A DNA stretch of 64,000 nt, taken from NCBI GenBank assembly GCA_051362555.1, contig CM120648.1, forward strand, positions 3,220,587-3,284,586, in the 5' to 3' direction. Position numbers and translations under genes: made by a program. Positions 11,029 through 59,092 of the stretch are shown one piece after another. This DNA comes from Lingula anatina (taxonomy: Eukaryota; Animalia; Brachiopoda). Positions within the stretch are counted from its first letter, which is position 1. Every line of letters starts with the position of its first letter. The notes below the pieces were generated by a model. The model had not been told where the DNA came from, made no database searches, and was given only the letters and a program-made list of their open reading frames with translations.

Positions 11029-11859
11029 ATGGATGGAATGATTGGAATATTGGTAAGTTAAAAGGAAATGGTTGTGGACACATTAAAGGTAAATATCTAA
11101 TATTAAAGCATTTATGAATCTTGTTGTTAAGGTAGGTTTTTATATTATAAGGGCGTTGTTGTCGATCCCTTGACGTTTTGAGGGACGATGGGCGTACCAA
11201 AAAGCCACTGCCCTGCATTGCAATTCTTGCTGTACTTAAATGAAAAATCTATCAAATCACTGTGTATTTTACTAAAACTATGTCTAAAAGAATTTTTATT
11301 CAATCTTTTTATGCAATCATCAACGAATATTAAAATTGTTTACCTCCAATATTTCCATGTCTGCCTAGAGCATCTTCATCAGAGAGAGGGGTTATCCAGC
11401 TACAAAAAGACATTCATTTATTTTTACATCTCAAAACATTTTGCATTTTGAAGTAAAGAAATAGAAAAGCTTTAAACATAGATGCACTTGATCGAGATTT
11501 CAGTGGTCTGATTTAACGCGTCACACAATTTTAAGAGAGAGTTTTCATGCATTTGAACATAGATCCATAATGAGACTGATTTTGACATAAAACATAGAAC
11601 AGTGTCAGAGTGACAGCCTCTGTTGAGAGGTAGATGTAGTCGTTTGGTAGACAGAGTGATCTGGTTCTGGGTCTTTTTATAAATTATATCAACAATGGGA
11701 TTGTGTCTTTTACGACATGTTTTAAAAAATGTCCAATTCTTAAAACCTTGCGTTTGATAACAATATCGATGATGATGATGATGGTGATGAGATCGTTGCC
11801 GTAAACAGCTGTTTTCTCTTTCCAGGTACTTTTCATCATACTGTTGACGCTTACCCCGG
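11029..11859 (+). CDS. Paralog A signal-peptide exons (11029-11052, 11826-11859)
   Basis: MDGMIGIL|VLFIILLTLTP, strong gtaagt donors; conserved in paralog B as MEGMIEIL|VLFIILMTLSS. Confidence 0.7.
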
Positions 11860-13634
11860 GTAAGTAGCCTTCTCGGACTGATCATGTATGTTTTTGAATA
11901 TTTTATTTTATGTGAATGGTATATTTAACCTAGGTCCCAGACCACAAGGACAGTAAGATAAAATAAGAAGTAAATTAAAAACTGGTGTTAAATATTACGT
12001 TTATGTGCAGAATTCTGAATGGGTGGATAATGAGCATTTGACAAAAATGAAAATAACAGTGAAACTTTAATTTGTTCGTCCACTGAATTATGAAATTGTA
12101 TCTCGTGGTGTTATGCCGTGAGGGTAAAGGAAGGGCAAATTGCATCGACTGTGATCGGCGACCACTGCATGAATACTTTACCCTAATTGCATGCTCCCAG
12201 GTGGCTGCTTTTGCCTTCGTTGGTTTGCTAGTCCACAGTCTAACTAAAAAAGTCATGGGCAGGTTTGAATGAAATTTTCCGGATATTAGTACGTCAGAAA
12301 ACAGCTAACTTAGACTCGCTTAGATTTTGGTAGTTATCCATTGGTTTATAGATTAGTTAATTCAATTTATTTCTGTACTGGTGTATAGATTATCATGACG
12401 TTGTAGAATAAAATGCAATAATAATACAATTGGTGCAATACCGTTAATGATGAGTATTGAGCTGCTTGGTGGAGGTCTGGGTTCCCTTAGTGCTTTTCTA
12501 GTCTTACATGAGCTCAGTGTAAAAGAAAAAAAAAACGAATGCGAGGACACGAACTTTGGGCTCATTTCCAACGAAGGAGGCCAACTTTGGGATCGTTCCC
12601 AATGAAACCATCGTTCTACATAGATCGATGCAACTCTGCAGGAACTCTCGCTGAATGCAATCAGGCTGATAAGCAGAATGGACAAAGTGGGTGACCACTT
12701 TGCGGTAGATAATTAAGAAGAGTACTCCCATATAAAGATTTAATATAATTGAGTACTTTTCCCCAAATGTCCAAAAGAATCTTATTTTCACTCACATAAA
12801 GAGAAAGGGTGTCCGATGTCTTTTTTCAGTTCATTCAAAAACCTCCCCACGCTCAACACTATAAGTCTGTGTTGGATATATACTCGTTTTTGTAACTTTC
12901 GCTTTTGCCATGGTGTACTTCTGCTATATGATGGTTATCAAAGACTAAAGTTTTCTTGATACGGTCATTTTCCTTCGTATACCTTTGTTACATGTATGTC
13001 AGTACAATTGACGCAATGAATTATTATCTTTTTACATTTTGTCTATGAGTAACGATGTTGGGAACAGATTTTAAAACACTTTATACTGTAATTAAAGGAA
13101 CACAATTCCAACAGGATAGATACTTTGTATTATTTCAGAGAAAAATATCTATACTGTATATTATTGTTTGTCCTATCAGTTTCTAAAGGCAACGAAAAAT
13201 AAATCGATGACTTAAGCCCTTTCCTTACATTGTCCTAGATTGAGCTGGTCGAGCATATTCAAAAGATTGTATTTATTTTTTTATTTATTTATTTATTTAT
13301 TTATTTATTGCCTTGTACAGCCACGGGTCTAAGCAGTATTCGGCTAAGTGACGTAACTGTTATAATCCCACAAATAATATTATATTTTTGCACTTTATTA
13401 ATTCTTTATTAATTAATTAATTAATTTATTTATTTATTTATTTCAGATCTGACCTCATCTAGCTGTGACAGCGGTTGGACACATAAGCCCGAGGTAGGAA
13501 AGTGCTTTAGGGCCTACGATAGCTTCCAGAGCTACCAAGGCGCCAAAACCAACTGTGAAAACGTCGGAAGCACATTGGCCATGCCAAAGACTCAAGAGTT
13601 ACACGAAGCCATGGCGTCCATACTGTATGTTTGA

Positions 13635-13677
<43 letters not shown>

Positions 13678-16600
13678 GTGTTAAAGTTGTAAGACTAGGT
13701 CAAAAGGAAATAGCAATTATGTTGCCCTCGAATCACAAATAAGGGGACGTATAATTTGCATGATATAAATTGTATCAATTGTATTGTACTACAGTGTTCT
13801 GGTAAGAATCATCAAGGTCATAAAAGGATATGTACCACTACACGCGTAAACTGATTGGATAATAAGAAGAATGTGAGATATAAAACTTTAGCATTAAATG
13901 TATAGCATTGCAACCAAGGCCTGAACTAATACATCTAACATACTGTAGCGATACTACATCTTATTTAGGAGCACATATAGAGAGTATTGGATTGGCCTGG
14001 AGAGACGGACCGGAAACACAGACACCTGGTTGGACGGTACACCGGTGTCGTGGAGTTATATCTGCCCATGTGATGGTAAAGAGTCGTCCTGCGCCGCGTA
14101 TCGAACTGTGGGGAGCGACAGCGGTGGAAATCACTACTGGGCAGACGCCTCGTGCTCCAGTTATTATCGCTATGTGTGCGAAAAATCAGGTAAGGGTTTT
14201 TGAGTGCCTTTGATGACTTGGACTCTTTTCGCATAGGGCGGTTCACTTAACTAGACAGGTCCATTTAAGGGACCATTCCCAAAGATATTTGGATCAATCT
14301 ATCTCCCTGGGGAGTCTCACTAAATTGCTATCAAACTAACCGGCTTAAATGTCTGTCACGCCTAGTAAAGCTGTAAGGGGGTAATTATCTTGATGGATCG
14401 ATCTATGTATGGGAACCCAGTCTAAGATCATTAAACGCTCGACACGGCCGAATAGCTGGTTGGAAGGTACAGTAGCGCCACAGAACAATATCTGCCCTTT
14501 GTGATAGTGAACAGTTACACTGCATAAGATATAAATCTTCATTTTCTGATATAGATGGGACTAGTGGTGCCGGGGCGGTGGCTAACCCATGTCCGTCAGG
14601 CTGGTCCCACAAGGCGTATGTCGACAGATGTTACTGGCACTCTGGCCACACACATGAGAATTACGAAGACTCTAAAACGGCCTGTGCGAACACAAACGGC
14701 GCCACCATAGCTATGCCTAAAACCGCAGAACAACAGGCCGCAATGGTGACCATGTTGTAAGTTTATTTCGCATTGAAATTCATCATATGGGCAAGGAAGT
14801 TTGCAAAATATACCTCAGGACAGCAACGGCATGGTTAATTTCACTTCAAACATTATTTTTAATGTAAACAAATTTAGAAAAAAGAACCCCCCTTTTGAAA
14901 TTGCTGGCTACGGGCCTGTGTCCATCCATGTTGACAATAAGTGCATTGTACTTTCCATAGCAAAATCGTCCACGTTTAGTACACTACCTAGATATTTCCC
15001 TCTGTTTGTATTTGCGAAGTCCACCAAGGCCAAATGTTTATCTTTGTGCTCCCTCCACCTATCCACTATCAGATTGATTTTTCACCAGATATTTACGAAT
15101 ATATCGCTGGCTCATTCAATGCAGTGGACAGTGCAGGTTTTTTTTTGTCATGAATTAACCCGAAACATATCTGTGAACATCTAGCAAAAATCAACCTGTG
15201 CTCTGGTAGAGGGTATCTTTCCCCCCCCCCCCCCCCACCCACCCACCCACCCACCCCCACACACAAACACACAAACATGCCTTCTTTGCCAAAGCCCTGT
15301 AGGCCTATCCTCTGGTGTATTTTTGGTCACGGTTATTTCTCACCATTTCTCGTCTCCAGGTCAAGTTCTGAGTACTGGATAGGACTTGAACACATGGGCT
15401 CCAACCCCGACCAGTGGGCTGACGGTACCTCACCAACCTATGATAACATATACCCGTATGACTCTCGGGGCAGCTCCAGTTGCAATGCCTATCGGGCACA
15501 CAACAGCTATAGTTTCCAATGGCTGGACCGGTCTTGCTCTAATAGTTATCGCTACGTATGCGAAATCATAGGTAAGCGGTTTGTCTTTAATTCATCACTG
15601 CGCATTTACATGTACTTAATCTTGCGGTGTTGCTTTCGGATCGTAGGCCCTACGTACTGACAGCCGTATTTGCATTTACTTGTATCAGGCCCGTAGCCAG
15701 CAATTTCAAAAGGGGGGTTCTTTTTCTGAAAAAAAGGACCTTTTCCCATAAAAACTTCATGTACCTAGATCAAATTTTACCCAGAGTGGACCTTTTCCCA
15801 GCAAAAGGGGCGGTTCTTTCGAACCCCCTGAACCCCTCCCTGGCTACGGGCCTGTATATATTACCCTAATTTGCATCACGAGCATTTTAATTAGTACCTC
15901 ACTTTCAGACCGAAGTCTGCTTCATATTTGTCACAGATAATAAGGCCTCAGCGCATCTATGAAAAAATCTTAAGCGTTTAGCAAATCCAAATGCCTGTCA
16001 GACTTTGTGTCCAACTATTTTCAATTAAATGCGATATAAGGCTGATCTTCCTATTGGCCTTATATTTCAGTTGGTACGGGTTGCAGCGCCCCCTCTTCTC
16101 CTGGTCATACCACAGAGGTCGTAGAGGGTACAGACGTAGGAGACAATATCACCTATACTTGTGAGTCCGGGACAACTCTTACCAGTGGAGACCTCGTGCG
16201 AGTGTGTCAGTCTGACCGGACGTGGAACGGCTCGGCACCCGTGTGTGAAGGTAAGGGTATCTAGCATGTTACGCCATGCTGCGCCCTTCATTAGGAAAGC
16301 CAAAATTTCCAGGTACTTTATATTTCTGCTTTTGGTGGCGTACCTATTGATGTCACCCTAAGGGCACAACGAGAGTTACAAAAATGTGCAATAGCCTTAG
16401 CTGTAGGGTTGAACATATGGTTTAGTATTACGCTAGGCTGCTCCTTCTGCTGCTATTGACTCGTGAAGCTTCACGGCACTCTACGCGCGTAGGAATCTCT
16501 CCCGCAGTTATGTACATGGATCTAAAGCTATATTTATCTCAGTTGTAATGTTGTTGTTTTTTCTAACAGTGGAAAAGCTGTGTCCCCTTTCCTCTCGGAT

Positions 16601-18089
16601 GATATGACTTTTGAATGCAGAATGTTGACCTGAAATTACAAGTTCAAAGGCCTTTTTCGTAGCCGTTGATACCTCTTTGGTAACATGTACGAACTGCTTT
16701 CGAAAGCGCTAATTTGAATTTACATTTACATCGAAGGTTGCAGTTTCCTCTACCGACACCCTGCATTCGTGCTGTTGGGAGCTCTCGTTTGAAGTAACTT
16801 TGACCTTGGATTTTAAGCACTGAAGCCAATCTTTTCTCTGGGGACTTATGAAAGTCATAATATTAACCTCATATTTCAGTAACAGTAAAAAGTGACCCCT
16901 TAACAGTTATCTCCTGCAGCCACCTCTACTGTCACGACGGCCCATGGGAATTACAATGCTTACCTTATTTTTCAGCTATAACCTGTAGTACCCCCTTAGC
17001 ACCAACTGATATTACTCGTGTCGTAGCGAGCACAGATGTAGGGGACATCATCACAAATCCTTTGTTCTTGGCGTTCGTAGTTCTCCTTTATTTAATAGTT
17101 TTACCATTTTTATCCTGTCAAGGATTAGTGACGTAGGATCATTTTGTTTTTCAAGGAATCCTTTCAATTCATATAGTCTAGCAGGGGTGGATCCAGGATT
17201 ATTTGAAGGGGGGTCCAGAACGCCAACCCTGGAATGTACAATGTAGAGCCGACCATCGCCCCCTTGGCGTGGGGTTCAGGGTTTGCTCAAAATATTTGGT
17301 GTTTTGGAGGGCAAACGGTGATCTTTGGTACGGTTTAGAACTATGATTCAGCTGTCAAAATTCTTATTTCCCACCTCTAAATCCGCCGCTGGTCTACCAT
17401 ACTTTTTGTCAGTGATTATTGCACATACTCTTCTCGCGAGCAACAAACTTCTGCTTTAATTGTGGTGTATTTCTACTACTTTATAGTTATCAAAGACGAA
17501 AGTTTTCTGGATACGATCATTTTACTTCGTATACATTTGTTACACGCAATGAAATATTATTTTTTTACATTTTGTCTACGAGAAACGATGTTTAAACAGA
17601 TTTAGCACTCTATACTCTACTAAATACAAAGCAATTCCAACAGAAAAATATCTGTACCGTATATTTTTGTCCTATCAATTTCTAAATGCACATTTTTGTT
17701 ACTCAGCAACGATACCCGGTATATCTACGATTACATTGGCTCTTTCCTTAAATTGTCCTAAAATGAACTGGTCGAGTAGATTCAAAAGATGAAAGTTTTT
17801 TTTTTTTTTCACTGCCCAGTCCCGGGTCTAAGCATTATTTGGCTAGGTAGTGTAACAATTTAAATCCCTTAAAGAATATTACATATTTTGAATTTTATTT
17901 TTTCATTTATTTCAGATCTGACCTGTGGCAGCGGTTGGACACACAAGCCCGAGGTAGGAAAGTGCTACAGGGCCTACGATAGCGTCCAGAGCTACCAAAA
18001 CGCGAAAACCAACTGTGAAAACGTTGGAGGCACACTGGCCATGCCAAAGACTCAGGAGTTACACGAAGCCATGGCGTCCATACTGTATG

Positions 18090-18143
<54 letters not shown>

Positions 18144-21100
18144 AAGTTGCAAGATTAGTTCAAAGGGAAATAGCAATTCTGATGTCCCCGAATCACAAAT
18201 AAGGGGATGTGTAATTTGCATTTATCATTTGTATTGTACTGGTAGGATCCTCATGGTCATTAAAGGAAATGTATCAGTACACGCGTAAACTGAACTGATA
18301 TGAAAAAGAACTTAAGATATAAAGCTTCATCATTCAATGTGTTGGATTGCAGTCGATATATATAAACCAAAGCATGAACTGATACATCTTATACTGCAGC
18401 GATACTATATCTTCTTCAGGAGCGACAGGGAGTATTGGATTGGCCTGGAGAGACTAACTGGAAGCACAGATACCTGGTTGGACGGTACAGCGGTGTCGTG
18501 GGACTATATCTGCCCATGTGATGGTAAAGAGTCGTCCTGCGCCGCGTATCGAACTTTGGGGAGCTACTACGGTGGAAATCATTACTGGGCAGACATCTCG
18601 TGCTACAATAATCATCGTTACGTGTGCGAAAAAGCAGGTAAGGGTTTCTGAGTGCCTTTGACTTCGGCTCTTTTCGCATAGGGCGGTGCACTTAACTAAA
18701 CCGGTTCATCTAAGATCATGAAACTCTCGACACGGTCGTTTAATTAAGTTGTCATAGGTAAAAAAATTTATAACTGCACATTTTTTTAAATTTCTGTTTG
18801 TACCAGTATACTTGACCCAGTTTACGTACCTTAGAGTTCAATAATGATACGAAAGGAAATAATGGAACGAAACAGTTTATATTATTCGAAACTATATAAT
18901 GGTATTTGATCTGGTTTAGTGAAAAAAATTTATTTGTCTACTGGCGTAATACGCATCTATACTGTATTAAGTTTTGTAATGTAGGCAGCTACAGTATCGA
19001 GGCTGCTTGCGAGGGTAGGACGGTAGCGCTACAGTGTTCCTTAAACCATGTCATCCATATTGTGGACGCTGTTTATGGCCGGACCAACACTTTAACGTGT
19101 GTCCACCATGCCATGTCCAACACGAACTGCAACGCCAGCACGTCCTACAGCGTCGTGGCCGCAGCATGCGAGGGTCAGCAGTCCTGCTCTGTGGTAGCAC
19201 ATAGGAGCACATTCGGTCAGGATCCTTGTGATGGAACCTACAAGTATCTAAAGATATACTATAATTGTCAAGGTAAACGAGTAGTTGGAATTATACTACC
19301 ACGGAGATCAGTGATGAAGTTCTATGTAGATTACTTCTACTTTTTCCTGGCAGTGACGACTGTAGTGGCGCTATATATTGCTCATGTTGCTTCATGCAGT
19401 ATTATAGTGTTTTTCTATCTTCAACAGGAGTGATTTTGTTTTTACTGTTGTTAGAATCCTGCAAAAACAACACTTACCACTTTTTATCAGTAGACCTAAT
19501 TAGAGTTGTGCTGCTTAAGGGTGGCATTTGCTATGCTTAATACAACTGCCTGGAATTGTACTTAGAGTGTATTGCAGATTATTAAATTGATGGGTATTAA
19601 TTTGACACTTTAGGGCATAAATGGTTTCATTTGAACCCCAAGATTGAAAACACAACACGAACCAGGGTTAAATCTGTTAAAATGAAACTTAGTTCCTGTG
19701 TAGAATTACATACAGCGCTGTAATCCTTAAAGTTCATAATAATATAAGTGCTCTTGACTAGATTCAGGCATTGCACAGCCGGTGGCATTCTGGCCGTTGG
19801 ACGCTAACAGCCTGGGCACCGATTTAAGTGGGAATGGACACAATGGAACGGTACATAATGCCACACCTTCGGCCGGACCTTACGGAGACGCCCATGCTTT
19901 GACCTTTGCTGAAGCCAGTGACTCCCATGTGGTCATACCAGCGCATGCGCAGCTTGCCGTCCAGAACTTCACTTTGATGTTCTTCATATATCTGGAGAAC
20001 TTGGACCCCAGTTGCATATTTGAGTACGCATCCAATCCAGTCGCGTCTCACATATGGCTTCACCCTAACGGGCAATCTCTAAAGATAAACCTCATTGACT
20101 CAAGCGACCATAATCTGCAGCACTTCAGTCAGGTGAACAACATATTTACAGAGAGAACGTGGCATAGGGTGGTCGTCAGCTACTCACAGACTACCGGGGA
20201 ACTGGCAGTGGAATCTGAAGTGTTTGACACCCAGGAGTCCAACAATAATACGAAGCAGTTAGGGACATTTACTCATCACACAAACGGTCTCAATCTGCAA
20301 ATAGGCAAGCGACAAGGGGTGGCCACAGAAATGTTCGACGGACGTTTATCGTGTGTTCATCTGTTTGATGACGTCATCGATGAGGACTCCAAGAATGCAG
20401 CGTGGGAACGATGCCAAGAGAGAGGGAATTTGGGTAAGTGGTCAGTGTATTGTCTTGACACTGACAGACCCAGTATTTGCTTTTTTTTGGGGGGGGGGGG
20501 TCACAAAGTTTTTTAAAAAGCGCTTCGCTTCACACGGCGTCCTTGCAAACGCATAATTCAACTTTCATATGAATTATATTTAATTCCGATTTCTCATTAC
20601 TGTCTCTGATAAGAAAGATACTATTGAAATGACTTCTTGTCATTGTACTTACATCCCCTTATTATCTTTTATCTATTTCACTTTAGCGTGCAATGCCCCG
20701 GATGACGGGATCAATGCTGCCTACTCTGGTAACTTGACAATGGGGTCTGTGGTATCGTACACCTGCAACTTAAATGCCACTTACATCAACGGGGACTCCA
20801 ACAGAACGTGCTTGGGAGATTTAACGTGGTCTGGTACACGGATGGAGTGTCATTGTAAGCATAAGTAGAACAGCAAGTAATTCAAATTATTTTAAAATGT
20901 TTCGAGAATAGTCTCCAAACTGAAGTTTCACTGGGGTTTGCAGATTATTAATTGGTATATCATGTCCTTTTATAACCCATGGTATTTTAGAATACATATT
21001 GTATGCCCTGCCTGCTTATGACTTTTCCTTACTTTTGGGTCTTCTAATCTATAGTGATAAGTCGCCTTCTCTCTGATTACTGATAACAAGACCATCATAT

Positions 21101-26564: not shown

Positions 26565-26619
<55 letters not shown>

Positions 26620-27401
26620 TTTTTCCTTTGTGTGTGTGTGTGTGTGATTTCAAAAGATATGATCGTTTTGAAAGGTATCTTAGTCCCGGTCTTTAAAAAT
26701 GCACTTTTAATTTTGATTTTTTTAATTCAAAATGTAATATCAATAAAAAATTGATAAAAACGCGTCAGACCTTTGAAGTACCCCTGCGAAATTCGGTGCC
26801 TAGAAAAATTTCTTTATATTAAGTTTTTTTTTCTTGATTCTGGCTCCCATAGGGCCTTAAAGCAAATTTAACGTGGTTGCCACTTTGGTAGCCTTTGGGA
26901 ACTCAAAATATCAAAATGGCCGCCAATTCTCAATTTTCTTTATAAATGTTCTTAAAATACTGAATGATATTCAATTAATTATATTTATTTATTTATTTAT
27001 TTATTTATTTTTTTTTTTTGGTAATGTTTGGTTGATTTATCAGTACATGATTTTCATATATCGTTTCAGGTCCGTGTAACGAGTGGCTGATATATCAGAT
27101 CATGTTTTTCATATATTGTTTCAGGTCCGTGTAACGAGTGGCTGATATATCAGATCAGCGATTCTTCAATATCGGCATCATCCAGCAGAAGCAACCTCTC
27201 GCATACTGATATAAGGTGCGGTTCACATTTAATTCAGCAGATGAATCTTCACATTTATATTGAGTTGCCCTGCCGCCATGGCGGATATTTGTACTCTCTG
27301 AGTTTTTTTTTTTTTTTTTTAGTTAAAACAACTGTTGTTGTTAAGCAGCGAAAAATGGCAAATAATATCCAAGCATTATAGCAGTTTGCTGAAAATTTAA
27401 C

Positions 27402-27445
<44 letters not shown>

Positions 27446-29220: not shown

Positions 29221-29259
<39 letters not shown>

Positions 29260-30947: not shown

Positions 30948-30999
<52 letters not shown>

Positions 31000-32105: not shown

Positions 32106-32163
<58 letters not shown>

Positions 32164-32997: not shown

Positions 32998-33266
32998 CTA
33001 CCCAACTACCAGACTCGGCACATAAGGATCCTGAATTAACCGGTATATCGGACCACACTACCCGTTTTCAAGGTGTGTGTCAGATCGCATTTAGGAGTAT
33101 CATACCCCAGAACAACGACAGGATGAGCACGCGGTCGTCCTACAAAATTTGTTCTGGGGTATGATACTCCGAAATGCGATCTGACACACACCTTTAAAAC
33201 GGGTAGTGAAGTCCGATATACCGATTAATTCAGGATCCTTATGTGCCAAGTCTGGTAGTTGGGTAG
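32998..33266. mobile_element. Long near-perfect palindrome (foldback/MITE) with arms of about 118 bp
   Basis: ctacccaactaccagact...ccccagaacaa, a spacer of about 33 bp, then ttgttctgggg...agtctggtagttgggtag; absent at the paralogous site near 60920. Confidence 0.85.
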
Positions 33267-33598: not shown

Positions 33599-33635
<37 letters not shown>

Positions 33636-33662
33636 CAAACACCATATATAACATGATATATA

Positions 33663-45700: not shown

Positions 45701-46309
45701 TCATAAAGTTGACCAGTTCCTACAGTTCGTAAAAATCCGCCAAATGATATAGTTATATATGGCGCATTACTGCTGTGCATTCAATAGCATAATTATTTCA
45801 ATGAGAGTTCGCGTAAACGACCAAGGGTCATTTATACTGGCATCACAAAAAGTTAGACCAATATATCTGTTCAAACACCATTTATCGGGGAATGTAAAAC
45901 GATATTTTTCGCACGTCTTTTAGTAATGCTATTTGAAACAATAACGTGAAATATGGTCAAGTTTAGTGGCAATGATTTGACATGTCAACTACATGACATA
46001 TAATTTTAATATTAAAGACACATTATGTAACAAGCGATAGTACAGCTGTTTGTATTTCCTTAAACAAATGCAAATTACTACAACCAGTTTCTTACACGAC
46101 CCGAACCAGATTAACATGCCAAAATGCAATTTATCGGTCAGGCGATAAAAAAACTTTAAAGATGCACATTTTTAAAACTTATGGTCGTTTACTTGATCCA
46201 CTCAGTTGGCCCTACAGTTCGTTATAATACGAAAGAAGATGATGAAACTAACCCTTTGGTATTGCTTAAGTTTTTTATTTATTTATTTATTTTTTATTTT
46301 TTATTGTTT

Positions 46310-46358
<49 letters not shown>

Positions 46359-49300: not shown

Positions 49301-50672
49301 CCAACAGAACGTGCCTGGGAAACTTAACGTGGTCTGGTACACGGATGGAGTGCCAGTGTAAGCATGAGTAGGACAGCACATTGTGTTAGGTGTGACAGCC
49401 TAATGTTTTAGGTGTGAAAATCAACTAAAACTACTGCGTTGCACAGCAAATGCAACGAGAAACTAAACGTAATATTCCTCCATGCAAATATATCATGTAT
49501 TTTTTACAGATGTCGTTTTCTGAATATTTCATTAAGTAATTAGAGAATAATCTCTTAAATGGAATTTCGCTGCGATTTTGCTGATTGTTGGTGGGGATAA
49601 CGTGACCTTGTATTTTTAGAACAGATATTTTATGTTCTGCCTGCTTATGACTTTCCAAGACTTTACAATACTTCCTCTCTACCTTCGATTAAGTCTGTAA
49701 TGATAAATCACTTTTCTCTGTATCAATCTTCAGGGCTTTATAGTAATAACACGTCCTCCCTACCCAAGAATATTCATGACCATAGTAACATCGTTTCCTC
49801 CCTACCCATGAGGAACATACGCCTCATACCCAGTGCTATAAAATGATTCGACCAGCATTTAAAAATAACAGCATAACCAGGGCACTCTGCCAGATGTTGT
49901 AAAACGCACGCCAATTGAGTCAAATTGTTTTTTCAGACGATCTGCAACAAGTTGCTTTCTGGCCATTTGACGGCAACAGTCTCGGCAACGACTTCACCGG
50001 AAGAGGGCACCACGGAGTACTTCATAACGTGATAGCAGCGCCGGGCCCTTTTGGGGCTCTTCATGCGTTGGAATTCACTCCCGCCTCTCTATCGCACGTC
50101 ACAGTGCCAGCACATGCCGATCTAGATGTCAGAAGCTTTACCTTGATTTGGCTAATGAATCCTGTAAGTGTGGGTTCAGCTGGAGTAGGTTGTATATTTG
50201 AATTCGGATATGGAAAGCCCCACGTATGGCAGTGGAATGCAGGTCCTCACTTATATGCCAACCTGGTTGATACTGCCAACCGAAACCACATTTCCACATA
50301 TCAGAACGTATTTACTGCCAACACGTGGCAGAAAGTCATCGTGCAATATGACCGAGACACGGGGACAGTTTTGTTAGGAGTGGGGTCTCTCGATTCCCAA
50401 TATTTCAATAATTCAACTGCGTCGATTGGCCAGTTTGATCTGAATACAGCAGGTCACGATTTTCACATAGGCAGACGGCCTAACGTCAATGTATACCTGT
50501 TCAATGGCCGGCTATCGTGCATCCACCTTTTTGACAAAGTAGTCGACTTGCAGACAATTAACGAAGCATGGGAGCTGTGCAGAGAAAGAGGAAACTTAAG
50601 TGAGTATTCTAGTGGTGTTATAATATTGAATTATTCAAATCCTAAATCAATAAACAGATATGGATATAATAA

Positions 50673-50719
<47 letters not shown>

Positions 50720-51520
50720 AAAATAAAGACAGTTCTTTGGGTTTCTAAATGTACTGCGTATAGACTAGAATTGAAACTGAAAAGTAGGATTTGATGGTTT
50801 GCAAAAAAACTGCTAGATATGATAAAGGGTCCCTTATTAGTGGCAGTCTATTCTTTAAGTTGTGACGCCCTGAGTTAGACATTAAATTTGATTGTTTGGT
50901 TGGGCAATTAATTGTGCTTGTTGTGCCGCCTGAATGCGTTAACTGTGACAATAATTGTCAGGTACGAGACTCCATTATATAAGTGGATTCAGCGGATTCA
51001 GCCAGATCCATCTGCACGTTTTTAATCATATATTTTTTTCTTCAAGGAACATATATTTGAATACATGCCACCTTTAAATGTCTGTATCAATAAATATGAT
51101 TAAAATGTACTCGAAACAGTTAAGGTACTAAATACCAAAGGGATTAATGGGATATGACAGCTTTCGCGACATGTTCTCTGGCAGTTCCCAAAAACCGTGA
51201 TTGACATTTTGCTTTGAAAAACTAAATGATAATGATGTGTGCATAACAAATACAAACTTATATGGCCTCTTCTTCACTGGTATTATTTGTATTTTTTATT
51301 TTTAAAACGACATTGATTGAAAGGGTTATATTAACAGAGCTTTATCTTTGTCCAGAGACGTTCACTCACTGAAAAAAAATTTTCTGTTCTTTAATAAAAA
51401 TCTGTTTTCATGTTTTCGAATTTCTTCAAGTCCCTTGACCCTTTCTAATTACTGTGGATATCTTTTTTGATAAAGTCATTTAGGTAACAGGTTTGTTACA
51501 TATTGAAATCCCTGGCCTTT

Positions 51521-51551
<31 letters not shown>

Positions 51552-54500
51552 TTCAGCATGTTCTGCTCCTGAACCCGGGGTAAATGCGACTTATTCGGGC
51601 AACTTAACCATGGGCTCGGTGGTGACGTACAGCTGTAACGTGGGTCACGTGCACGCCAGCGGTGACGTCACTAGAACGTGCCTGGGGAATTTAACGTGGT
51701 CCGGGACGCAAATGGAATGTGAAAGTAAGTGTCACGCTAAAAACAGTGCTAATCTAAGCCACACACATCGTGTATTTTAAAAGTATCAAACTAGAGCGTT
51801 TAAGAAGAGATCCGACTGAACAGAGCAAATGTATTTTTAAGTGCTCGTTTCCGGATTCAATCTGAACAAAAGCACTATAAAAACCAGCTATAAGGATATC
51901 GAAATTGATAACTTGTTCACATGTAGAACATAGTACAGTTAATAAGTGCATTTTCTTTCCAGTTGTTACTTGCAGCGACCCTGGTTTCATTGACAACAGC
52001 GCCAGGCTTCCGACCACGAGCCAAACATTCTATGGCGGGAACAACGTGACTTACACGTGCAACAGCGGCTATTTTGTAGCAAATGGTTCGTTGACACGTG
52101 TCTGTCAGGACAATAGCACTTGGAGCGATGATCCGCCTTTTTGTGAAGGTGAGTCATTGAAGAATAGTCTTAAATAATATCTATGAGAAAACGTCTTGAT
52201 ACTAGACCACGGTTCCGTAAGGAAAAATTCCTATAGGGTCCCATAGGCAATCGGCTCAAAATCCGACGAATGGCACTAGAAGACATATATTCTGCCCCCG
52301 TGCCCTGCTAATTGTAATAAAATTGTTCTAGTCGATTTTATAAATTCGCAAGACAGTTTTTAGGCTTGTGCCCAACCCCTTCCCCGTTAGCGAAGTCTGG
52401 GATCTGCTAGTGCACGATAAACAGACAGTTTAAGGGGGTCTATTTTTCTTAAAATATGATGCAGATCCAACCTTTTCCGGATCAAGGGAGCGTCTTGGTT
52501 GGAATTCACACCCGGTACCACCCCCACCCTTCCAATGAACTTAGCCTGCCTTCCCATAGATTTAGATCGATCCATCTGGTTCGACCTCACTCCCTGGGGG
52601 CTCACGCTAAATTGCTGTCGACTCAAGAGGCTTAAATGTCTGTCACGTTTACCGAATCAGCTAGGGTAAATATAATTACCTCTTAACAGCTTTACTAGGC
52701 GTGACAGACATTTAAGCCGGTCAAGTTGACAGCAATTTAGTGAGACTACCCAAGGGGATAGATCGATCTAAATATCTGTGGGAATGGTCTCTTGTAGACC
52801 TGCATAAATTGTTACTTTTCAGTCATCCCTGAGTTTTCAACGCCGTGCTATGGCGACTGGGGACATGGCTACTACGGTCACTGCTACATCATCAACGACA
52901 CTCTCACAGATTGGGAGACAGCAAATGATAATTGCCATAGACTCGGAGGCTACATCTGGGTTCCAGAGACAATTGCCGAGAGGAACTATGTGTCTGGTTT
53001 ATCGACACTTAGTCGCTGGTGGGTTGGTAAGTATATATTTACTTTTAAGTAAGGTTTATTTATAAGGATTTACAAAAATATCCAGACTAACAGTGAATTA
53101 TTTGACCTTCCACATAAGGGTATATATATATATATATATATGTTATTCATGGTCATGTCTACTTGATATTGAATTTAGCCGCGTTTAGGTTCACACAAAT
53201 ATAATTATTGCTGCAAAAACATGAGAGGTATAGTTGTTAGCAAAAAAAGGATATCGGGTTTGTATTACATAAAATAAATATTGTGAAATGAATTGATGAA
53301 TTTATATATATTTGAGCACTGAATTAATTAATGACTGTTTAATATGGCTTGTGCTTTGAGCCATTGATTTTTATTTATCTTAAGTTGCATAGGGCAGGGC
53401 AATCTACATGTAGGACAGAAATGGGCCAAAAAATTAGGTCGTACAAGCTTTTGTGAACTTGGGCGTTTTTGTGACACAAGCCAATAATTCTCGAAGACTC
53501 GTAAATACAGACTCTGATTATGAAACACCTCTTTCTTCAGGTATTACCGACCCATGGTATACGGAAGCAACTATTCCGCTGTCTGGATCTCTGTTGAAAG
53601 ATGACATTTTCGCTAGCAATGAACCGGATAATTTGGACAGGGTTTACGTTCTCTTAAACGGAGCTGGCGTAAGTGACGCTAATTCGGGCACTACAGGCAG
53701 GAGGAACATCTGTGAGCAAAGCCCAGGTAGTATATACAACATTGTGTCCCTATTGGTTTATATTTCAGTACAGATTGGACATTGTTGGTTGTGATTAATT
53801 GCCTCTGTCAATGCATGATTATAGATATGTGTTGAATTGCTCCAGTTTGAAATGTATTATATATAACGGAGAGAGAGAAAGAAGGAGTGTGCAATTCATT
53901 TCTTTAACAAAAAAAGTTGGGAGATTCGAATTCAGTTGAGTTGAGATATCGTTATCATTTCTTTTCATATCAAATAAACTCTATCCTGAAAGTTTCATCA
54001 ATATATACGATTAATGCGAATAATTTTAAGGACACTTTGTTCACCAACAAATAGACAAACCTACGCTGATGCAAACAAAACCATCTCCGTGCGATAGGCG
54101 GATAGGCAATACAAATACATATTTCAGCTTACCTTGGTTGTTATCGTACGGATAGCAGTCTGACGGCAACCCTCAGCAGCCCCGTACACATGAACCTCCA
54201 GCAGTGTATTGAGTACTGCCGTGGCTTGTCCCGTGCCTACGCCAGTGTGTCTTCCTCGGAGTGTTACTGTACACAGACCGTCACTGTATCTAATAAGGAG
54301 AACGACTTCACTATCTGTGATACAAAATGTCCTGGAAACAAACACCAGTTCTGCGGGGGCAATGGATATGTGTCAGTGTATCTAGTTAGTAAGTGTCAGT
54401 GTCTCAGAGAGAGAGAGAGGGGGAGAGAGAGAGAGAGAGAGCGTGTATTTATACTTTTAAAATACACCTGTCTACTATAGATGAGCAGACAGCTGCACAA

Positions 54501-57474
54501 ATAGATAGTCGGACTAATTACTATACACTGAATATCTCTTTTCGTGATTAATGAAAAAAGGTCCAGTTTAGTAAGAACCGCTGCAACCAGTTGGACTTGG
54601 GACAATAAAAAATTGTGAACTACTGCAATTGTCTATTGTAAACCGCACTGAAACGTAATGCAGCTGACAGTATATAAGAACAAGACTTGACTTTTACTTT
54701 TTAGCTTGGATATCAGTAGTGGCTAGTTCTTGTGATGTCCTGTATAAAAACGGTGTCCGGGAGTATGGTCAGTACTGGGTGACAGCGGCTGGGATAGATC
54801 AAAACATCCGAGTGGAGTGTTTTCCATCAAGTGGGTATTTGTCCCGTGCTTAATCTCAGTTAATATCCATCCATTTTTTCTTATTCTTTGGATTTGTAAA
54901 ATGTAGCAAATTGCTTTTTCTTACTTTTTTCTTGTGGTTTCAAAAGAGACCATCAAGTTGAAAGTATCCAGTATTTCAAAATGCACTTTTTCTGAAAACA
55001 AAATTGGTGTCTCAGTTTATACAAGTGAAAAATGCGTTATGCCTTTATACAAAAAAAAGTTTGGAACGATTTTAAATGATTACTAAACGTTGCAGATTAT
55101 TCTACTAGTATTTATAAATATGACATCATTTAAAGCTAACTACATATACGTATCAATAATGTTCTGAAATAAATCTGTTATTTTCACGAGAGAATTTTGT
55201 TTCATATTTCGGCTTTGTTCTATGACATTGTTTTTCTCAAGTCGAGTTTTCATACGTCGTTTCAGAACCGTGTAACAAGTGGCTGATATATCAGATCAGC
55301 GACTCATCAATATCAGCATCATCCAGCAGAAGCAACCTCTCGCATACTGATATAAGGTATCTGTTTTGGCTCACATACAACTCAACAGATGGATTAATTA
55401 TAGGAAAACTTTCTTCATATATCCATATATCAGCTTTTCAACTTAACCCCTAGTGCAAATTTGGATTATTGTTTCAATAATAATAATAATAATAATAACA
55501 ATATAATTAATGATGAATATAATAATAAAGAATACAATAATAAATTATACCTGCACCACTTCAGACTATATGGTGAGAGTGGATGGGGTCCTGACGTCAG
55601 TGCTGACACTAACGGCTCTTGGGTTCAGCTTTCCTTGCCAAACCGGTATATAGTCACTGGCTTCAAGACACAAGGTATGCTTTATCACTGGTGGGGTCGG
55701 TCGTATTTTAAGTTTATTGCATGTGATATTTATTTATAAGTATTTAACTGACTAACCTTTGAGTAATGAAATCTGTTTACAGATGTACAGTAAGCCTAAC
55801 AATACTCCCCTGAGTGTCAGGGCCACTGTGAAGCTAGAACTGTTCGCGGACTTCAACAGTATTGTTGATAAGGGTTATATATATGAAATTAAGATCGAGC
55901 TGGCAATACGGAAATCTAGAACCTAGGGTAAACAATACGAGTTTTCGGTAGAATGTTTTCATTGACTATATTCCAAAACATTGAACAAGATGAAAACGGC
56001 TTGGGCGTGTCATATGATTGGCCAGTATTCTACATACGAAGCAGAGTAGTTGAACATCTTTCACAGGGGCGGATTCAGAGATATTTTCTGACAGTCGTCC
56101 AAATTATCTTTGTTGATCCATCCACCATTTTTGATCGTCTTCCGACAGAAAAAATTTAGATACCCACCAATGTAAACTTGAAAATCTGACCGTCTTCCGG
56201 AAGACCAAGAAGACGGCCTAAATCCGCCCCTGTTTCATATCAATGGAAAAATGTTTTGAAATAATTCGATCTGAAGACTCAACACTTTATATCTTTTTTT
56301 GACAGGGCGTTATGACATCAATCAATTAGAGAGAGTGCAGAACTTTACAGTACAGTACAGAGATTCAAGTACTGGCAGTGACTGGCAGAGATATAACAAT
56401 GATTCCCATGTATTTGTAGTAAGATTTAGACCAGCCATTTGGTAAACTGCACGTTTTGTCTTTGTTAAAGACTGGATAGTCGAATATGAATGGGTTTGTG
56501 TGTTTAACGCACGTTAAATAACGTCCAGTACTTTGAATACATTTAAGTGTTAGATGGATGTTTCTTACAATACCTAATTTATCTACTTATCCATTTCATT
56601 GCCATTTATATTGCTTTCGAATAACCAACATCTTGTCTTTAAGTTTGACGCCAGAGGGCCAACGAGTAGCGATTTCAATACCCCTGTGTACAGCGAAGTT
56701 GAGAACCCGTTCATAGCCACAGATATCCGAATTCTGCCTGAAACCAGCAGCTGTCTAGGAACCGGATGCGTCATGAGGCTGGATGTCAGCGGGTGCCAGT
56801 TTGATACATTCTCAGGTAAAATAATTCTTATCCATAGTTTGGATGAGCCAGTTTCGAAACCAAAGCTGGTCAATATTTCCTTTTCAAATTCCCGTACATG
56901 TAGAAGGTTACTCCCCGCCTTGAAACATCGCAGGTCTTTGATAGAGGTTAACTGCACAAAACGCAACTAATAGTCTGGTCTCTGATCTTTGAAACCGTTA
57001 ATTTGGGTGATTAAAAAAGTGGTATTTTTCAAACATCTATGCCGTTAAATATCAAGGTCTCTAAAGCATTATCTAGATTTATTTCAATTTATCCTACCTA
57101 GAAACTGCTGTGGACGTAGGGTGTTTCCTGGATGACCCAAATCACCCAGAATTCCCGAATATCCTGTCTTCCGGTATCACGTCAACGTCAGAATGTCGTG
57201 AGCTTTGTGTGCAGGGCGGTTACTTGTACGCTGCTGTCACCAACGGTAAGTGCAACTTGAGAATATAATTAAACGTTTCGGCACACCCACACAAAAGACT
57301 ACAAGTACATTTATGAAATACATTTAAAAGGTAAACAATACCCAAATGTAGAGAACTAAACTACATTCACTGCAGCAAAACGGGCACACTAAACAGCAGA
57401 AAAACAATGAAACTAATGCCGTAAAGAAAGAAACAAATAAACACATTTAATATTATTGTAATTATTATAAAAAC

Positions 57475-57516
<42 letters not shown>

Positions 57517-57817
57517 CTCAGGGACCGTGTGCGGGTGTGGAAACCAGATTGGAAAATACGGGAAGGCAAGCACGGGGATGTGCGATATTGCGTGCACCGG
57601 GAACCAACAGGACGCGTGCGGCGGTGAATTATTGAATTCAGTCTTCAGAGTTTGGAGTAAGTACGACATAAGTATCTAGATCTTCTTCAAAAATGGCGGG
57701 ATAAAAGAAGTTGGAAGCTGTTAACAGAATATATTTGCAAAAAGTAAAAATTTAAGAAGGCGTTAATGCAATGAATGTGGAATAAAATGTTCATACGACA
57801 GTGACCATGACCTGTGT

Positions 57818-57852
<35 letters not shown>

Positions 57853-58862
57853 TTCTTATATGGCGCCTTACATTCTATCTCAAGGCGCCTTACAATAATG
57901 GCTAATATACTAAAATCATTCTTATGTAATTTAATCGGAGCTCACATAGGCCTATATAAACCAGACATTAAAACATGCACATGATCAAGACCACAAATTT
58001 ACCTTAATCAGGTGTAAAGTGCCCGGAGCTTCCACGAAAATCCAATATGGCTCTGAATACCACAGAACTTTCCCATGGTGACGTTGCAAAATACACGTGT
58101 CTCCATGGATACCGGTTGCCTTCAGGAACCAATGAAACAGACATCTTGAGATGTGTTCAGAAGCAATGGATAGGGGGTATCCCTGCCCAGGGATGCGAAC
58201 GTACGTTAAAACTAATTAACCTAACTTGCGTTGCTTTTTAGTAGTCGGGACGTGATATGTACATGTAGGCCTATATAAATACATGTCTGCCACAATCAAT
58301 AACGAAACTCTCAACCGCGTGTTTTAAATAGTGAACGTGACATATATTGCTTTTATATTATATATTCTTTAACAAAACTTGTACTTCTGAGCAATTTCTA
58401 ATATAATAGATCTTTTAAAAATTAAGTTTTTAATTGATACCTCGAAGTAGGTCAGTCTTTTTGTCGTCCAGGCCCAACAATCTTGTTCTCAATTTCCATT
58501 AGACTGAATTATACTGTAAGCGGGTTCTGTTTCCTTATTAACAGGAATAGTGTGCAGCGGAGCTTTACCCACTGTGGCCAACGCGACAAGAACAGATACC
58601 GGGAATTTCTTGGATAGCACTGCCACCTACCGATGCCTCTATGGTTTCCTGTACCCAGATGGTAGCGATGTCCAGCAGATTCATTGCCAGGATACGGGGG
58701 CGTGGTCATCTTTATCACATTCTGAGTGCCAGGGTAATTTCTCCCCCAAAGCATACTTTGGCACGTTGTATATTTTATTCACTATTTTTTAACAAGAATC
58801 CAGTTATCGTCCCAACTCGGAATCGCCCGAGACATACCAAACTCAACAGTATAATAATAATG

Positions 58863-58897
<35 letters not shown>

Positions 58898-59092
58898 GGT
58901 ACATGTTATTCGTTATTTATTCAGAGAGATTGTGCAGTGCGCCGCCAGATGTCGCCAATGCCACCGCTGTCTTCAACAACCGAACCTGGACGTTCACCTG
59001 TGACGCTGGGTACGCGGTATCGGCCGGAGACACCACACAGACCCTGTTCTGTAATTTACAGGGGCAGTGGGAAGGAAATGTGGAAAACTGTG
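36719..59092 (+). CDS. Mosaic extracellular multi-lectin protein, paralog B: SP-CTL-CTL-CCP-CCP-CTL-CCP-SUEL-LamG-CCP-LamG-CCP-CCP-CTL-WSC-FBG-like mini-FA58C-WSC-CCP-CCP-CCP; about 2,009 aa; 3' end unresolved
   Basis: 30 GT-AG exons keep frame: 36719-36742, 37340-37373, 39155-39332, 40476-40693, 41175-41376, 42478-42689, 42946-43125, 43725-43901, 44212-44386, 44561-44790, 45069-45245, 46464-46745, 48312-48977, 49190-49357, 49937-50599, 51557-51724, 51963-52148, 52823-53026, 53541-53726, 54128-54388, 54705-54830, 55266-55356, 55565-55674, 56306-56418, 56644-56815, 57102-57245, 57522-57656, 58012-58200, 58545-58733, 58925-59092 (6,028 nt). Confidence 0.88.
38133..38380 (+). pseudogene. Displaced dead copy of the last Sushi exon plus downstream flank, inside intron 2 of paralog B
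   Basis: Aligns with 31153-31400 and 58927-59170; lacks the acceptor AG, has a 10-bp deletion and a TTA>TAA change. Confidence 0.85.
39155..42689 (+). CDS. Paralog B C-type lectin-like domains 1 and 2 (four exons)
   Basis: WIGL, W.DG, ICSCD, W.D..C and YVCE motifs; homologous to 13447-15571. Confidence 0.9.
39533..39585 (-). ncRNA. Minimal type I hammerhead ribozyme motif (minus-strand pLTR)
   Basis: Reverse complement reads ttcc-CUGAUGA-a-AUCUG-acugcaag-CAGAU-GAAA-uauu-gga. Confidence 0.65.
40145..40197 (+). ncRNA. Minimal type I hammerhead ribozyme motif (plus-strand pLTR)
   Basis: CUGAUGA at 40153-40159, stem II AUCUG/CAGAU, GAAA at 40179-40182, palindromic AAUAUU as minimal helix III, stem I ucc/gga. 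Confidence 0.68.
40746..40910. mobile_element. Small inverted-repeat insertion specific to paralog B
   Basis: ccagtgtaacg...cgttataccgg ends; not present in the matching paralog A introns. Confidence 0.45.
41700..41885. mobile_element. MITE-like element with internal ctaaccc motifs
   Basis: Inverted arms acaggaatgcaa / ttgcattcctgt. Confidence 0.5.
42946..45245 (+). CDS. Paralog B CCP-CCP-CTL3-CCP block (five exons; largely missing in paralog A)
   Basis: Sushi exons 42946-43125, 43725-43901, 45069-45245; CTL exons 44212-44386 and 44561-44790 (YHIGLE...WVDG...NICSCD...WADNSC...YVCE). Confidence 0.88.
46464..46745 (+). CDS. Paralog B SUEL / rhamnose-binding lectin exon
   Basis: ACE...ALYGR...CEGQQSC...FSQDPCSGTYKYL...Y.C. 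Confidence 0.92.
46861..47825. mobile_element. Non-autonomous DNA transposon with about 34-bp TIRs and TAA flanks (PIF/Harbinger-like)
   Basis: taa|ggccacacttttttaattttatggatgacatcct...aggatgtcatccataaaaataaaaaagtgtggcc|taa; absent from paralog A near 19390; internal diverged tandem repeat at about 47387-47680. Confidence 0.85.
48312..52148 (+). CDS. Paralog B LamG-CCP-LamG-CCP-CCP exons
   Basis: Same exon lengths (666/168/663/168/186) and motifs as 19768-24076. Confidence 0.88.
52548..52790. mobile_element. MITE family A, copy 3
   Basis: ttcccatagatttagatcgatc...gatcgatctaaatatctgtgggaa; internal arms gcttaaatgtctgtcacg / cgtgacagacatttaagc. Confidence 0.75.
52823..59092 (+). CDS. Paralog B CTL4-WSC-mini-FA58C-WSC-CCP x3 exons
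   Basis: Exon lengths and motifs identical in pattern to 24282-31318. Confidence 0.88.
56064..56232. mobile_element. CAGG...CCTG MITE with 5-bp target-site duplication TTTCA
   Basis: tttca|caggggcggatt...aatccgcccctg|tttca. Confidence 0.8.

What the first reader, a model, noticed from the sequence alone, without database searches (positions are those of the whole stretch)
11029..59092. Tandem pair of giant mosaic proteins, each carrying five different glycan-binding folds
Seen: two frame-intact gene models (28 and 30 exons). Each encodes a signal peptide, 4 CTL-like domains, 1 SUEL, 2 LamG/ConA-like domains, 2 WSC, 1 discoidin and 7-9 CCP modules, with many N-x-S/T sequons. Established: CTL, SUEL, WSC, discoidin and ConA-like folds each bind glycans in other proteins, and CCP modules act as spacers or complement-type binders. 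I do not recognise this architecture as a named protein. Inference: a multi-specificity recognition protein (innate immunity, gamete recognition, mucus or matrix), with a variable N-terminal tip on a constant C-terminal stalk. This is the best candidate for an undescribed system in the window.
Basis: partly seen in the sequence, partly recalled or inferred. Interest (0 to 1): 0.8.

Follow-up and report, generated by a model that had tools for sequence, protein, structure and literature searches.

The report
Twin secreted multi-module binding proteins, Lingula
Two neighbouring genes of the lamp shell Lingula each encode a predicted secreted protein of about 1,900-2,000 amino acids strung together from six kinds of binding module, but only one module keeps a recognisable sugar-binding site, so they are likely many-handed extracellular tethers rather than five-way sugar sensors.

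Summary
I rebuilt both models: 28 exons/1,888 aa and 30 exons/2,009 aa, all GT-AG, stop-free, 78.5% identical. Gene 1 is RefSeq LOC106174934 of Lingula anatina, uncharacterised, 26 aa different. Gene 2 was not found as a protein. Gene 1 gives weak, sense, exon-confined RNA. The pair is under purifying selection (dN/dS 0.24-0.34).

The 'five glycan specificities' reading is overstated. None of 8 C-type lectin-like domains has the EPN/QPD+WND site. The discoidin is neuropilin/factor V-type and the WSC is Kremen-like. Only the SUEL domain keeps its core rhamnose/galactose residues. The N-terminal tip varies by exon duplication and loss, not by diversifying selection.

There is no REJ, GPS, vWA or transmembrane segment, so it is not REJ/polycystin or SVEP1. 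The true C-terminus is unresolved. No full-length homologue was found elsewhere, but a predicted amphioxus protein holds all six domain families in another order. It is a lineage-specific exon-shuffled secreted mosaic of a familiar invertebrate kind. No earlier scan note on such a protein was found.

The parts
11029..31318 (+). Gene 1 (= RefSeq LOC106174934, L. anatina), 28 coding exons, 1,888 aa up to the last donor; RefSeq closes it by reading 5 more codons past that donor
11029..11859 (+). Gene 1 predicted signal peptide, exons 11029-11052 and 11826-11859; the alternative first exon of RefSeq isoform X2 starts at 11068
   Evidence: only strongly hydrophobic window
13447..15571 (+). Gene 1 CTL1 (13447-13624 + 13969-14189) and CTL2 (14555-14756 + 15360-15571); no EPN/QPD/WND
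16071..16250 (+). Gene 1 CCP1
16976..17062 (+). Truncated CCP pseudo-exon, 78% identical to gene 2 exon 8 over 95 nt
17916..18637 (+). Gene 1 CTL3, a recent internal duplicate of CTL1 (block 12911-14269 copied to 17463-18714; dS 0.18)
18985..19272 (+). Gene 1 SUEL/rhamnose-binding lectin domain; Glu, Tyr, Asp, Gly, Lys kept, Asn74 equivalent replaced
19768..24076 (+). Gene 1 LamG_3 (19768-20433), CCP (20687-20854), LamG_3 (21463-22125), CCP (22998-23165), CCP (23891-24076)
24282..25430 (+). Gene 1 CTL4, degenerate (EPD, no WND, 4 Cys)
25779..29853 (+). Gene 1 WSC1 (25779-26039), 41-aa two-Cys module (26365-26490), F5/8-C discoidin (4 exons, 27125-28804), WSC2 (28994-29853)
30107..31318 (+). 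Gene 1 three C-terminal CCP exons; the last ends on a GT donor; AATAAA at 31391
36719..59092 (+). Gene 2, 30 coding exons, 2,009 aa up to the last donor; not found in the protein collection
36719..37373 (+). Gene 2 predicted signal peptide, exons 36719-36742 and 37340-37373
38133..38290 (+). Dead copy of the last CCP exon (about 96% identical, frameshifted, acceptor lost) with its downstream AATAAA (38367), inside gene 2 intron 2
39155..45245 (+). Gene 2 N-terminal block: CTL1 (39155-40693), CTL2 (41175-42689), CCP (42946-43125), CCP (43725-43901), distinct CTL3 (44212-44790), CCP (45069-45245)
46464..52148 (+). Gene 2 SUEL (46464-46745), LamG_3 (48312-48977), CCP, LamG_3 (49937-50599; predicted ConA-like sandwich, pLDDT 95), CCP, CCP
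52823..59092 (+). Gene 2 CTL4 (52823-53726), WSC1 (54128-54388), two-Cys module (54705-54830), F5/8-C (55266-56815), WSC2 (57102-57656), three CCP (58012-59092)
59875..61000 (+). Region shared by both copies (65-72% identity, frame not conserved), covered by a few sense-strand reads; likely a 3' terminal or untranslated exon; AATAAA at 60991

Best explanation
Two tandem Lingula paralogues, built from modules bounded by phase-1 introns, encode predicted secreted, N-glycosylated proteins that likely act as multivalent tethers in an extracellular coat, mucus or matrix. The single SUEL domain is predicted to grip terminal alpha-galactose or rhamnose weakly. The non-canonical CTL, LamG, WSC and factor-V-type discoidin domains would mostly bind proteins, glycosaminoglycans or membranes, and the CCP modules would hold them apart as spacers. 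Binding strength would come from avidity over many weak contacts rather than from five separate sugar specificities. Shown: gene structure, domain order, motif state, purifying selection, weak transcription of gene 1, and the order of duplication events. Inferred: secretion, every ligand, the tissue and the role.
For: A signal peptide is the only strongly hydrophobic segment, and no membrane-anchor exon conserved in both copies was found downstream. 22 of 28 and 24 of 30 exon ends are phase 1. SUEL keeps the four residues shared by CSL3 and latrophilin-1 plus Asp79 but not Asn74; the single latrophilin domain binds rhamnose at 1.8 mM, judged by its authors too weak to discriminate alone (PMC2430599, passages). 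0 of 8 CTLDs carry EPN/QPD with WND. The best PDB matches are neuropilin b domains and factor V for the discoidin and Kremen-1 for WSC1. dN/dS is below 1 in every domain (0.14-0.63). Large secreted cohesive proteins combining discoidin with lectin-type modules are known: Sfp1, nectin (PMC7037938, passages).
Against: There are no ligand or tissue data. Expression is low in all 8 libraries laid (exon depth at most 4.5), whereas a bulk structural or mucus protein should be abundant in its own tissue, which may simply not be among them. It lacks the vWD/C8/TIL polymerisation modules of Sfp1-type glues. The closest solved fold to LamG2 is domain 4 of a bacterial arabinanase crystallised with an arabino-oligosaccharide (Z 21.0, rmsd 2.6, 191 aligned), so more than one real sugar site is possible. 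Invertebrate CTLs with atypical motifs can still bind sugars (recalled). The last exon ends on a conserved donor and the true C-terminus is not shown.
Confidence: 0.45

Rival explanations
1. Soluble pattern-recognition or opsonin protein. SUEL binds bacterial rhamnose, other modules bind further microbial surfaces, and CCP runs engage a C3-type complement protein.
For: The SUEL core site is intact, and rhamnose is rare in animals (PMC2430599). Low basal expression fits an inducible gene. Lineage-specific bivalve CTL proteins with WSC and sushi domains are proposed to be immune and some respond to stimuli (PMC10140915, passages). Complement components are reported in brachiopods (PMC9835746, passages). 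The LamG fold is pentraxin-like (PTX3 Z 17.4).
Against: No diversifying selection between the copies. Only one such protein in the collection, so no large variable family. CTL sugar/Ca2+ motifs are absent. CCPs come in runs of 1-3 between other domains, not the longer arrays of complement regulators (recalled).
Confidence: 0.27
2. Gamete or egg-coat recognition protein, working like the lectin tip of sea-urchin REJ or like egg SUEL lectins.
For: CTL, SUEL and WSC are the N-terminal modules of SpREJ/PKD1 proteins (PMC1934368, passages). Near-absence from 8 libraries fits a gonad- or stage-restricted gene.
Against: SpREJ lectin domains are under positive selection, whereas these paralogues show dN/dS 0.19-0.63 in the CTLs (this compares paralogues, not species). 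No REJ domain or membrane anchor.
Confidence: 0.12
3. The models are the ectodomain of a membrane-anchored receptor (GPI, single-pass, or PKD1-like/adhesion-GPCR) whose last exons were missed.
For: Both genes end on a conserved phase-1 donor. Sense reads lie 0.8-1.8 kb downstream with none in between. Amphioxus PKD1-like proteins carry WSC, F5/8-C and the same LamG_3 subtype at their tips (P0155, P0029), and a hemichordate adhesion GPCR carries LamG_3 and sushi (P0113).
Against: Gene 1 is followed directly by gene 2, and 5.4 kb leave no room for REJ/GPS/7TM exons. Scans of 62 and 79 candidate acceptors gave no hydrophobic tail conserved in both copies. RefSeq ends the protein 5 residues after the last CCP. 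The search of proteins of 3,316-5,000 aa found only generic CSMD sushi hits, which is weak evidence.
Confidence: 0.1
4. Shell matrix protein for phosphate biomineralisation.
For: LamG_3, F5/8-C, sushi and CTL domains are reported among Lingula or brachiopod shell proteins (PMC13425148, section 8 and passages).
Against: The accessions are absent, and no WSC or PF01822 entry occurs, in the 2026 shell-proteome supplement. No WSC or Gal_Lectin entry occurs in the 2015 supplement.
Confidence: 0.06

Closest known systems
RefSeq LOC106174934 (XP_013412166.1 / XP_013412167.1), Lingula anatina, uncharacterised
   Same: It is gene 1: 26 aa differences in 1,888, same exons.
   Different: No paper in the held library cites it. 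RefSeq closes it by reading through the last donor. Gene 2 was not found as a protein.
Amphioxus predicted mosaics XP_078701671.1 (3,202 aa), XP_066275437.1, KAI8502505.1
   Same: XP_078701671.1 holds all six Pfam families (Lectin_C, SUEL, LamG_3, WSC, F5/8-C, Sushi), with an N-terminal hydrophobic segment and no internal one.
   Different: Different order and extra CUB, LDLa, pentraxin, ILEI and FAMeT domains; low identity. These are uncharacterised predictions, and lancelet models are error-prone (PMC4967905, abstract and opening text).
PKD1/REJ family (SpREJ1-3, PKD1L2, amphioxus KAI8489538.1 and XP_035672789.1)
   Same: N-terminal CTL, SUEL and WSC modules; WSC, F5/8-C and LamG_3 in the amphioxus members.
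   Different: No REJ, GPS, PLAT, PKD repeat, channel or transmembrane segment in the Lingula proteins.
SVEP1/polydom
   Same: Large secreted protein with CCP modules and a pentraxin-like sandwich (architecture recalled).
   Different: No vWA, EGF or HYR; only 7-9 CCPs; CTL, SUEL, WSC and discoidin are added.
Sea star Sfp1 and sea urchin nectin (cohesive/adhesive proteins)
   Same: Large, Cys-rich, secreted proteins with discoidin domains and, for Sfp1, lectin-type modules (PMC7037938).
   Different: No vWD, C8, TIL or EGF domains and no GDPH autocleavage motif here; one discoidin instead of four to six.
Rhamnose-binding lectins (CSL3, latrophilin-1 RBL domain)
   Same: SUEL keeps Glu7, Tyr27, Asp79, Gly83 and Lys86.
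   Different: A single copy, with Asn74 replaced, embedded in a 1.9-2.0 k-residue mosaic.

Membership tests
PKD1/REJ polycystins | [quoted passage not shown] | tested here: not met
   No REJ match in the Pfam scan of the full RefSeq protein; all residues are assigned to other modules; definition from PMC1934368.
PKD1/REJ polycystins | GPS, PLAT and transmembrane segments | tested here: not met
   None in the models. Gene 2 starts 5.4 kb after gene 1's last exon. For gene 2 only 4.9 kb downstream lie in the window.
SVEP1/polydom | vWA + EGF + HYR + pentraxin + long CCP array (recalled definition) | tested here: not met
   Pfam finds only Lectin_C, Sushi, WSC, SUEL, LamG_3 and F5/8-C. SVEP1-labelled hits cover 7-9% of the query.
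Classical Ca2+-dependent C-type lectins | CTLD fold | tested here: met
   Lectin_C E 8.9e-46, 3 stretches; CTL4 by profile and Atlas.
Classical Ca2+-dependent C-type lectins | EPN/QPD plus WND site-2 motifs (motifs recalled) | tested here: not met
   0 of 8 domains. CTL1-3 have W-x-D only; CTL4 has EPD but no WND and lacks the inner disulfide.
SUEL/rhamnose-binding lectins | Glu7, Tyr27, Gly83, Lys86 primary site | tested here: met
   All four are present in both genes.
SUEL/rhamnose-binding lectins | Asn74 and Asp79 of the higher-affinity CSL3 site | tested here: not met
   Asp is kept; Asn aligns to Thr in gene 2 (an Asn lies one residue earlier) and to Arg in gene 1.
SUEL/rhamnose-binding lectins | Measured rhamnose or galactose binding | not testable with these tools
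   Needs recombinant protein.
F-type (fucose) lectins | H-x26-R-x-D-x4-R/K motif (recalled) | tested here: not met
   No match; only R-x-D-x5-R without the His. Best PDB hits are neuropilin and factor V.
Pentraxins | Pentraxin domain with Ca2+ site | tested here: inconclusive
   ConA-like sandwich predicted (pLDDT 94.9); PTX3 Z 17.4, below bacterial sandwiches at Z 19-21; Pentaxin Pfam 16.1 bits, under the cut-off of 25. Ca2+ ligands not mapped.
Sfp1/mucin-like cohesive proteins | vWD-C8-TIL assemblies and GDPH autocleavage | tested here: not met
Lingula shell matrix proteins | Detected in the shell proteome | tested here: not met
   Accession and WSC searches are blank in the 2026 supplement; WSC and Gal_Lectin searches are blank in the 2015 supplement. 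Proteomes are not exhaustive.
Lineage-specific CTL-domain-containing mosaic proteins (CTLDcps) | CTLD plus other extracellular modules in a lineage-restricted order | tested here: met
   No homologue covering more than 9% of the query outside Lingula among 7,986 scored candidates; class as described in PMC10140915.

The most novel reading that the evidence does not exclude
A secreted 'lectin array' in which several structurally unrelated domains (SUEL, LamG_3, WSC, discoidin, atypical CTLs) each bind a different glycan, with the N-terminal CTL/CCP cassette being rewired by exon duplication and loss. It would be a single-chain combinatorial glycan reader assembled independently in a brachiopod and in amphioxus.
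Probability: 0.15. Interest if true: 0.7.

Novelty: new member of a known kind. Interest (0 to 1): 0.35.

Why it matters
It is a clean, datable example of exon shuffling at work in an extracellular protein. After the gene duplicated (dS about 0.2-0.4), gene 1 appears to have lost a CCP-CTL-CCP block and gained a copy of CTL1 (dS 0.18), leaving dead exons behind, while the pair stayed under purifying selection. It adds a second paralogue that was not found in public protein sets. If several modules do bind different glycans, it would be a natural single-chain glycan array and a handle on how filter-feeding invertebrates sort particles and microbes. On present evidence it is one more uncharacterised lineage-specific mosaic of common domains.

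Tried and rejected
No whole genome is held, so family size in the genome could not be counted. The run search listed no RNA holder, only 9 raw-read runs by species label; 8 of the 9 were laid. One search was dominated by intronic repeats and listed no splice joints. Haplotype duplication (gene 2 as an allele) was rejected: dS 0.20-0.39 and different exon content, against 26 aa differences between gene 1 and RefSeq and 1.6% reported heterozygosity (PMC4595640, passage). A hydrophobic 44-codon frame at 31876-32007 was rejected as a GPI or TM tail because its acceptors and frame are not kept in gene 2 and Pfam is blank. Two short conserved donor-ended stretches (ending 31545 and 31633; 59577 and 59662) could be micro-exons but have purine-rich acceptors, so this is unresolved. 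Paper searches by accession gave 0 hits. Searches by domain words listed no paper whose title or abstract start names this protein; only listings were seen for most. Gerdol et al. 2018 on Lingula immunity is not held; I saw only its citation, and it may list this gene. Scan-note look-ups by sequence and by words were blank. Foldseek on LamG2 returned clostridial neurotoxin binding-domain sandwiches at 9-17% identity, a shared fold that says nothing about function. LamG1 has only a weak PDB sequence match. No complex prediction was run, as no partner is claimed.
Full report
Observation. Six-frame and splice-site analysis gave two plus-strand models that I assembled: gene 1, 11029-31318, 28 exons, 1,888 aa; gene 2, 36719-59092, 30 exons, 2,009 aa. 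Neither has a stop, every intron is GT-AG, and the proteins are 78.5% identical over their whole length. Only the model frame is open in 21 of 25 and 25 of 27 exons of 100 nt or more. The duplicated unit includes flanks (about 9760-33500 against 34600-61165). Gene 1 order: signal peptide, CTL, CTL, CCP, CTL, SUEL, LamG, CCP, LamG, CCP, CCP, CTL, WSC, a 41-aa two-Cys module, F5/8-C, WSC, CCP x3. Gene 2 has CTL, CTL, CCP, CCP, CTL, CCP before the SUEL and is colinear after it. The small module has no Pfam match; its likeness to the lead-in of fibrinogen-related domains is recalled.

Identity. A search with gene 2's first LamG exon found one protein among 408 candidates of 388-2,000 aa: Lingula anatina LOC106174934. 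Pfam on that protein gives six families, all above cut-off. A whole-length search (7,986 scored candidates of 1,041-3,315 aa) returned itself and four generic sushi-rich proteins covering 6-9% of the query. Gene 2 did not appear, although a shorter fragment of it could have been missed. A search of longer proteins gave two CSMD hits only.

Expression. Of 9 raw RNA runs listed, 8 were laid, each read at 6-30% of its size. On gene 1 exon depth was at most about 0.6 in X1 and lower or nil in the other three, and intronic repeats dominated. On the 3' part of gene 2 at 88% likeness, X5 and X6 showed reads confined to exon bins, almost all on the mate orientation expected for a plus-strand transcript, with depth up to 4.5. 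Of the 15 exon-located variant sites among the 40 rows shown (71 rows were not shown), 14 carry gene 1's base. Two reads join 58201 to 58547 with gene 1's base between, which is the predicted CCP-CCP junction. So gene 1 is transcribed and spliced at low level, but only 1 of 27 junctions was seen. For gene 2, a few sense reads at 59875-60910 lie in a region where gene 1 is only about 66-72% alike, so they come from gene 2 or a close third copy. Its exon splicing is not shown. Tissues are unknown.

C-terminus. Both models stop on a conserved phase-1 donor. RefSeq reads through it to a stop 5 codons on, and an AATAAA follows in both genes and in the dead exon copy. Against that, sense reads occur downstream in gene 2 with none in 59098-59874, which would fit a further spliced terminal exon. 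The most conserved downstream acceptors give stops within a few to about 20 codons (read from the alignment). No hydrophobic tail is conserved in both copies. Secretion is therefore likely but not shown.

Do the folds bind glycans? SUEL keeps Glu7, Tyr27, Gly83, Lys86 and Asp79 of CSL3 but not Asn74 (residues from PMC3269628, passages). The latrophilin-1 domain, which shares the four core residues, binds rhamnose at 1.8 mM and galactose at 34 mM, and its authors argue for non-carbohydrate ligands in receptors (PMC2430599, passages). CTL1-3 of both genes have no EPN/QPD and no WND; CTL4 has EPD but no WND and only 4 Cys. The top PDB hits of the CTL2 C-terminal exon are snake-venom CTL-like chains and ovocleidin-17, with true lectins such as CEL-IV close behind. 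The discoidin matches neuropilin b domains and factor V and lacks the F-lectin His motif. WSC1 matches Kremen-1 best. LamG2 folds confidently (pLDDT 94.9, 36-sequence alignment) as a ConA-like sandwich; its nearest solved neighbours are domain 4 of a bacterial arabinanase (Z 21.0), other bacterial sandwiches and PTX3 (Z 17.4). This is the main result in favour of a second sugar site, but identity is 14-16%.

Evolution. 22 of 28 and 24 of 30 exon ends are phase 1, the usual signature of exon shuffling. Between the paralogues dN/dS is 0.24 (exons 3-7), 0.34 (SUEL to LamG2) and 0.29 (C-terminal half), with dS 0.39, 0.25 and 0.20 (Nei-Gojobori). The N-terminal part is more divergent at silent sites too, which fits partial homogenisation of the 3' part or rate variation, not diversifying selection. 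Gene 1's third CTL is a copy of its first (dS 0.18, younger than the CTL1 split between genes at 0.31). It sits just after a truncated CCP exon homologous to gene 2 exon 8, so gene 2 likely keeps the older arrangement. A dead copy of the last CCP exon lies in gene 2's intron 2.

Comparison. The phmmer scan of 1.84 billion representatives with LamG2 found 345 proteins at E <= 0.001 and listed 150. I scanned 51 proteins from these and related look-ups with Pfam and named 21. The closest LamG relatives are other Lingula, hemichordate and amphioxus proteins. Amphioxus XP_078701671.1 has all six families in another order with extra domains, XP_066275437.1 has four of the five lectin-type folds, and two amphioxus PKD1/REJ proteins carry F5/8-C and LamG_3 (one also WSC) at their tips. 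Lancelet gene models are often wrong (PMC4967905, abstract and opening text), so these are leads. CTL, SUEL and WSC occur together across the REJ/PKD1 family (PMC1934368, passages), but the Lingula proteins lack its defining REJ domain. Lineage-specific CTL mosaics with WSC and sushi are described in bivalves (PMC10140915, passages). The protein is not in the searched shell-proteome supplements. No paper in the held library cites its accessions. Gerdol et al. 2018 could not be read and may bear on this.

Verdict. These are real genes, most likely both functional, encoding secreted mosaic proteins with a domain order not found elsewhere in these searches, but of a familiar invertebrate kind. 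I favour a multivalent extracellular tether with one weak sugar site (0.45) over an inducible opsonin (0.27), a gamete protein (0.12), a receptor ectodomain (0.10) or a shell protein (0.06). Interest 0.35.

Noticed in passing
window 726-1731 (+): 3' exons of a multi-pass membrane protein with a weak MMPL/RND match (E 0.0013); looks Dispatched/Patched-like (label recalled).
   Followed up: partly
window 5148-7321 (-): AMP-binding (acyl-CoA synthetase-type) enzyme in two long ORFs, 6554-7321 and 5148-6191 (PF00501, PF13193), unusually exon-poor for this region.
   Followed up: partly
window 39483-40246: GIY-YIG endonuclease fragment (39747-40118, E 3.2e-05) overlapping a 245-nt inverted repeat pair (91%) in gene 2 intron 3; likely a Penelope-like retroelement relic (label recalled).
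   Followed up: partly
window 61191-61773 and 62184-63999 (-): Inverted-repeat (MITE-like) element, followed by minus-strand ORFs that look like a DIRS-type retroelement (recalled; Pfam gave no significant match).
   Followed up: partly
window 14280-14424, 15686-15854, 29377-29506, 55880-56233: Intronic repeats very abundant in poly(A) RNA of all runs laid over them (bin depth up to about 700 per strand).
   Followed up: no
window 31517-31633 and 59549-59662: Two short stretches conserved in both copies, each ending in a GT donor, 70-73 nt apart; possible 13-nt and 15-nt micro-exons with purine-rich acceptors.
   Followed up: partly
P0001/P0002 against window gene 1: 20 of the 26 allelic amino-acid differences fall after residue 1,260, and at 15 of 26 the RefSeq residue equals gene 2's; this may reflect gene conversion, ancestral states or a collapsed older assembly.
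   Followed up: partly
P0003, P0005, P0006/P0153: Lingula has further uncharacterised proteins made of 1-5 tandem copies of the same LamG_3 subtype (LOC106155885, LOC106169280, LOC106181945).
   Followed up: no
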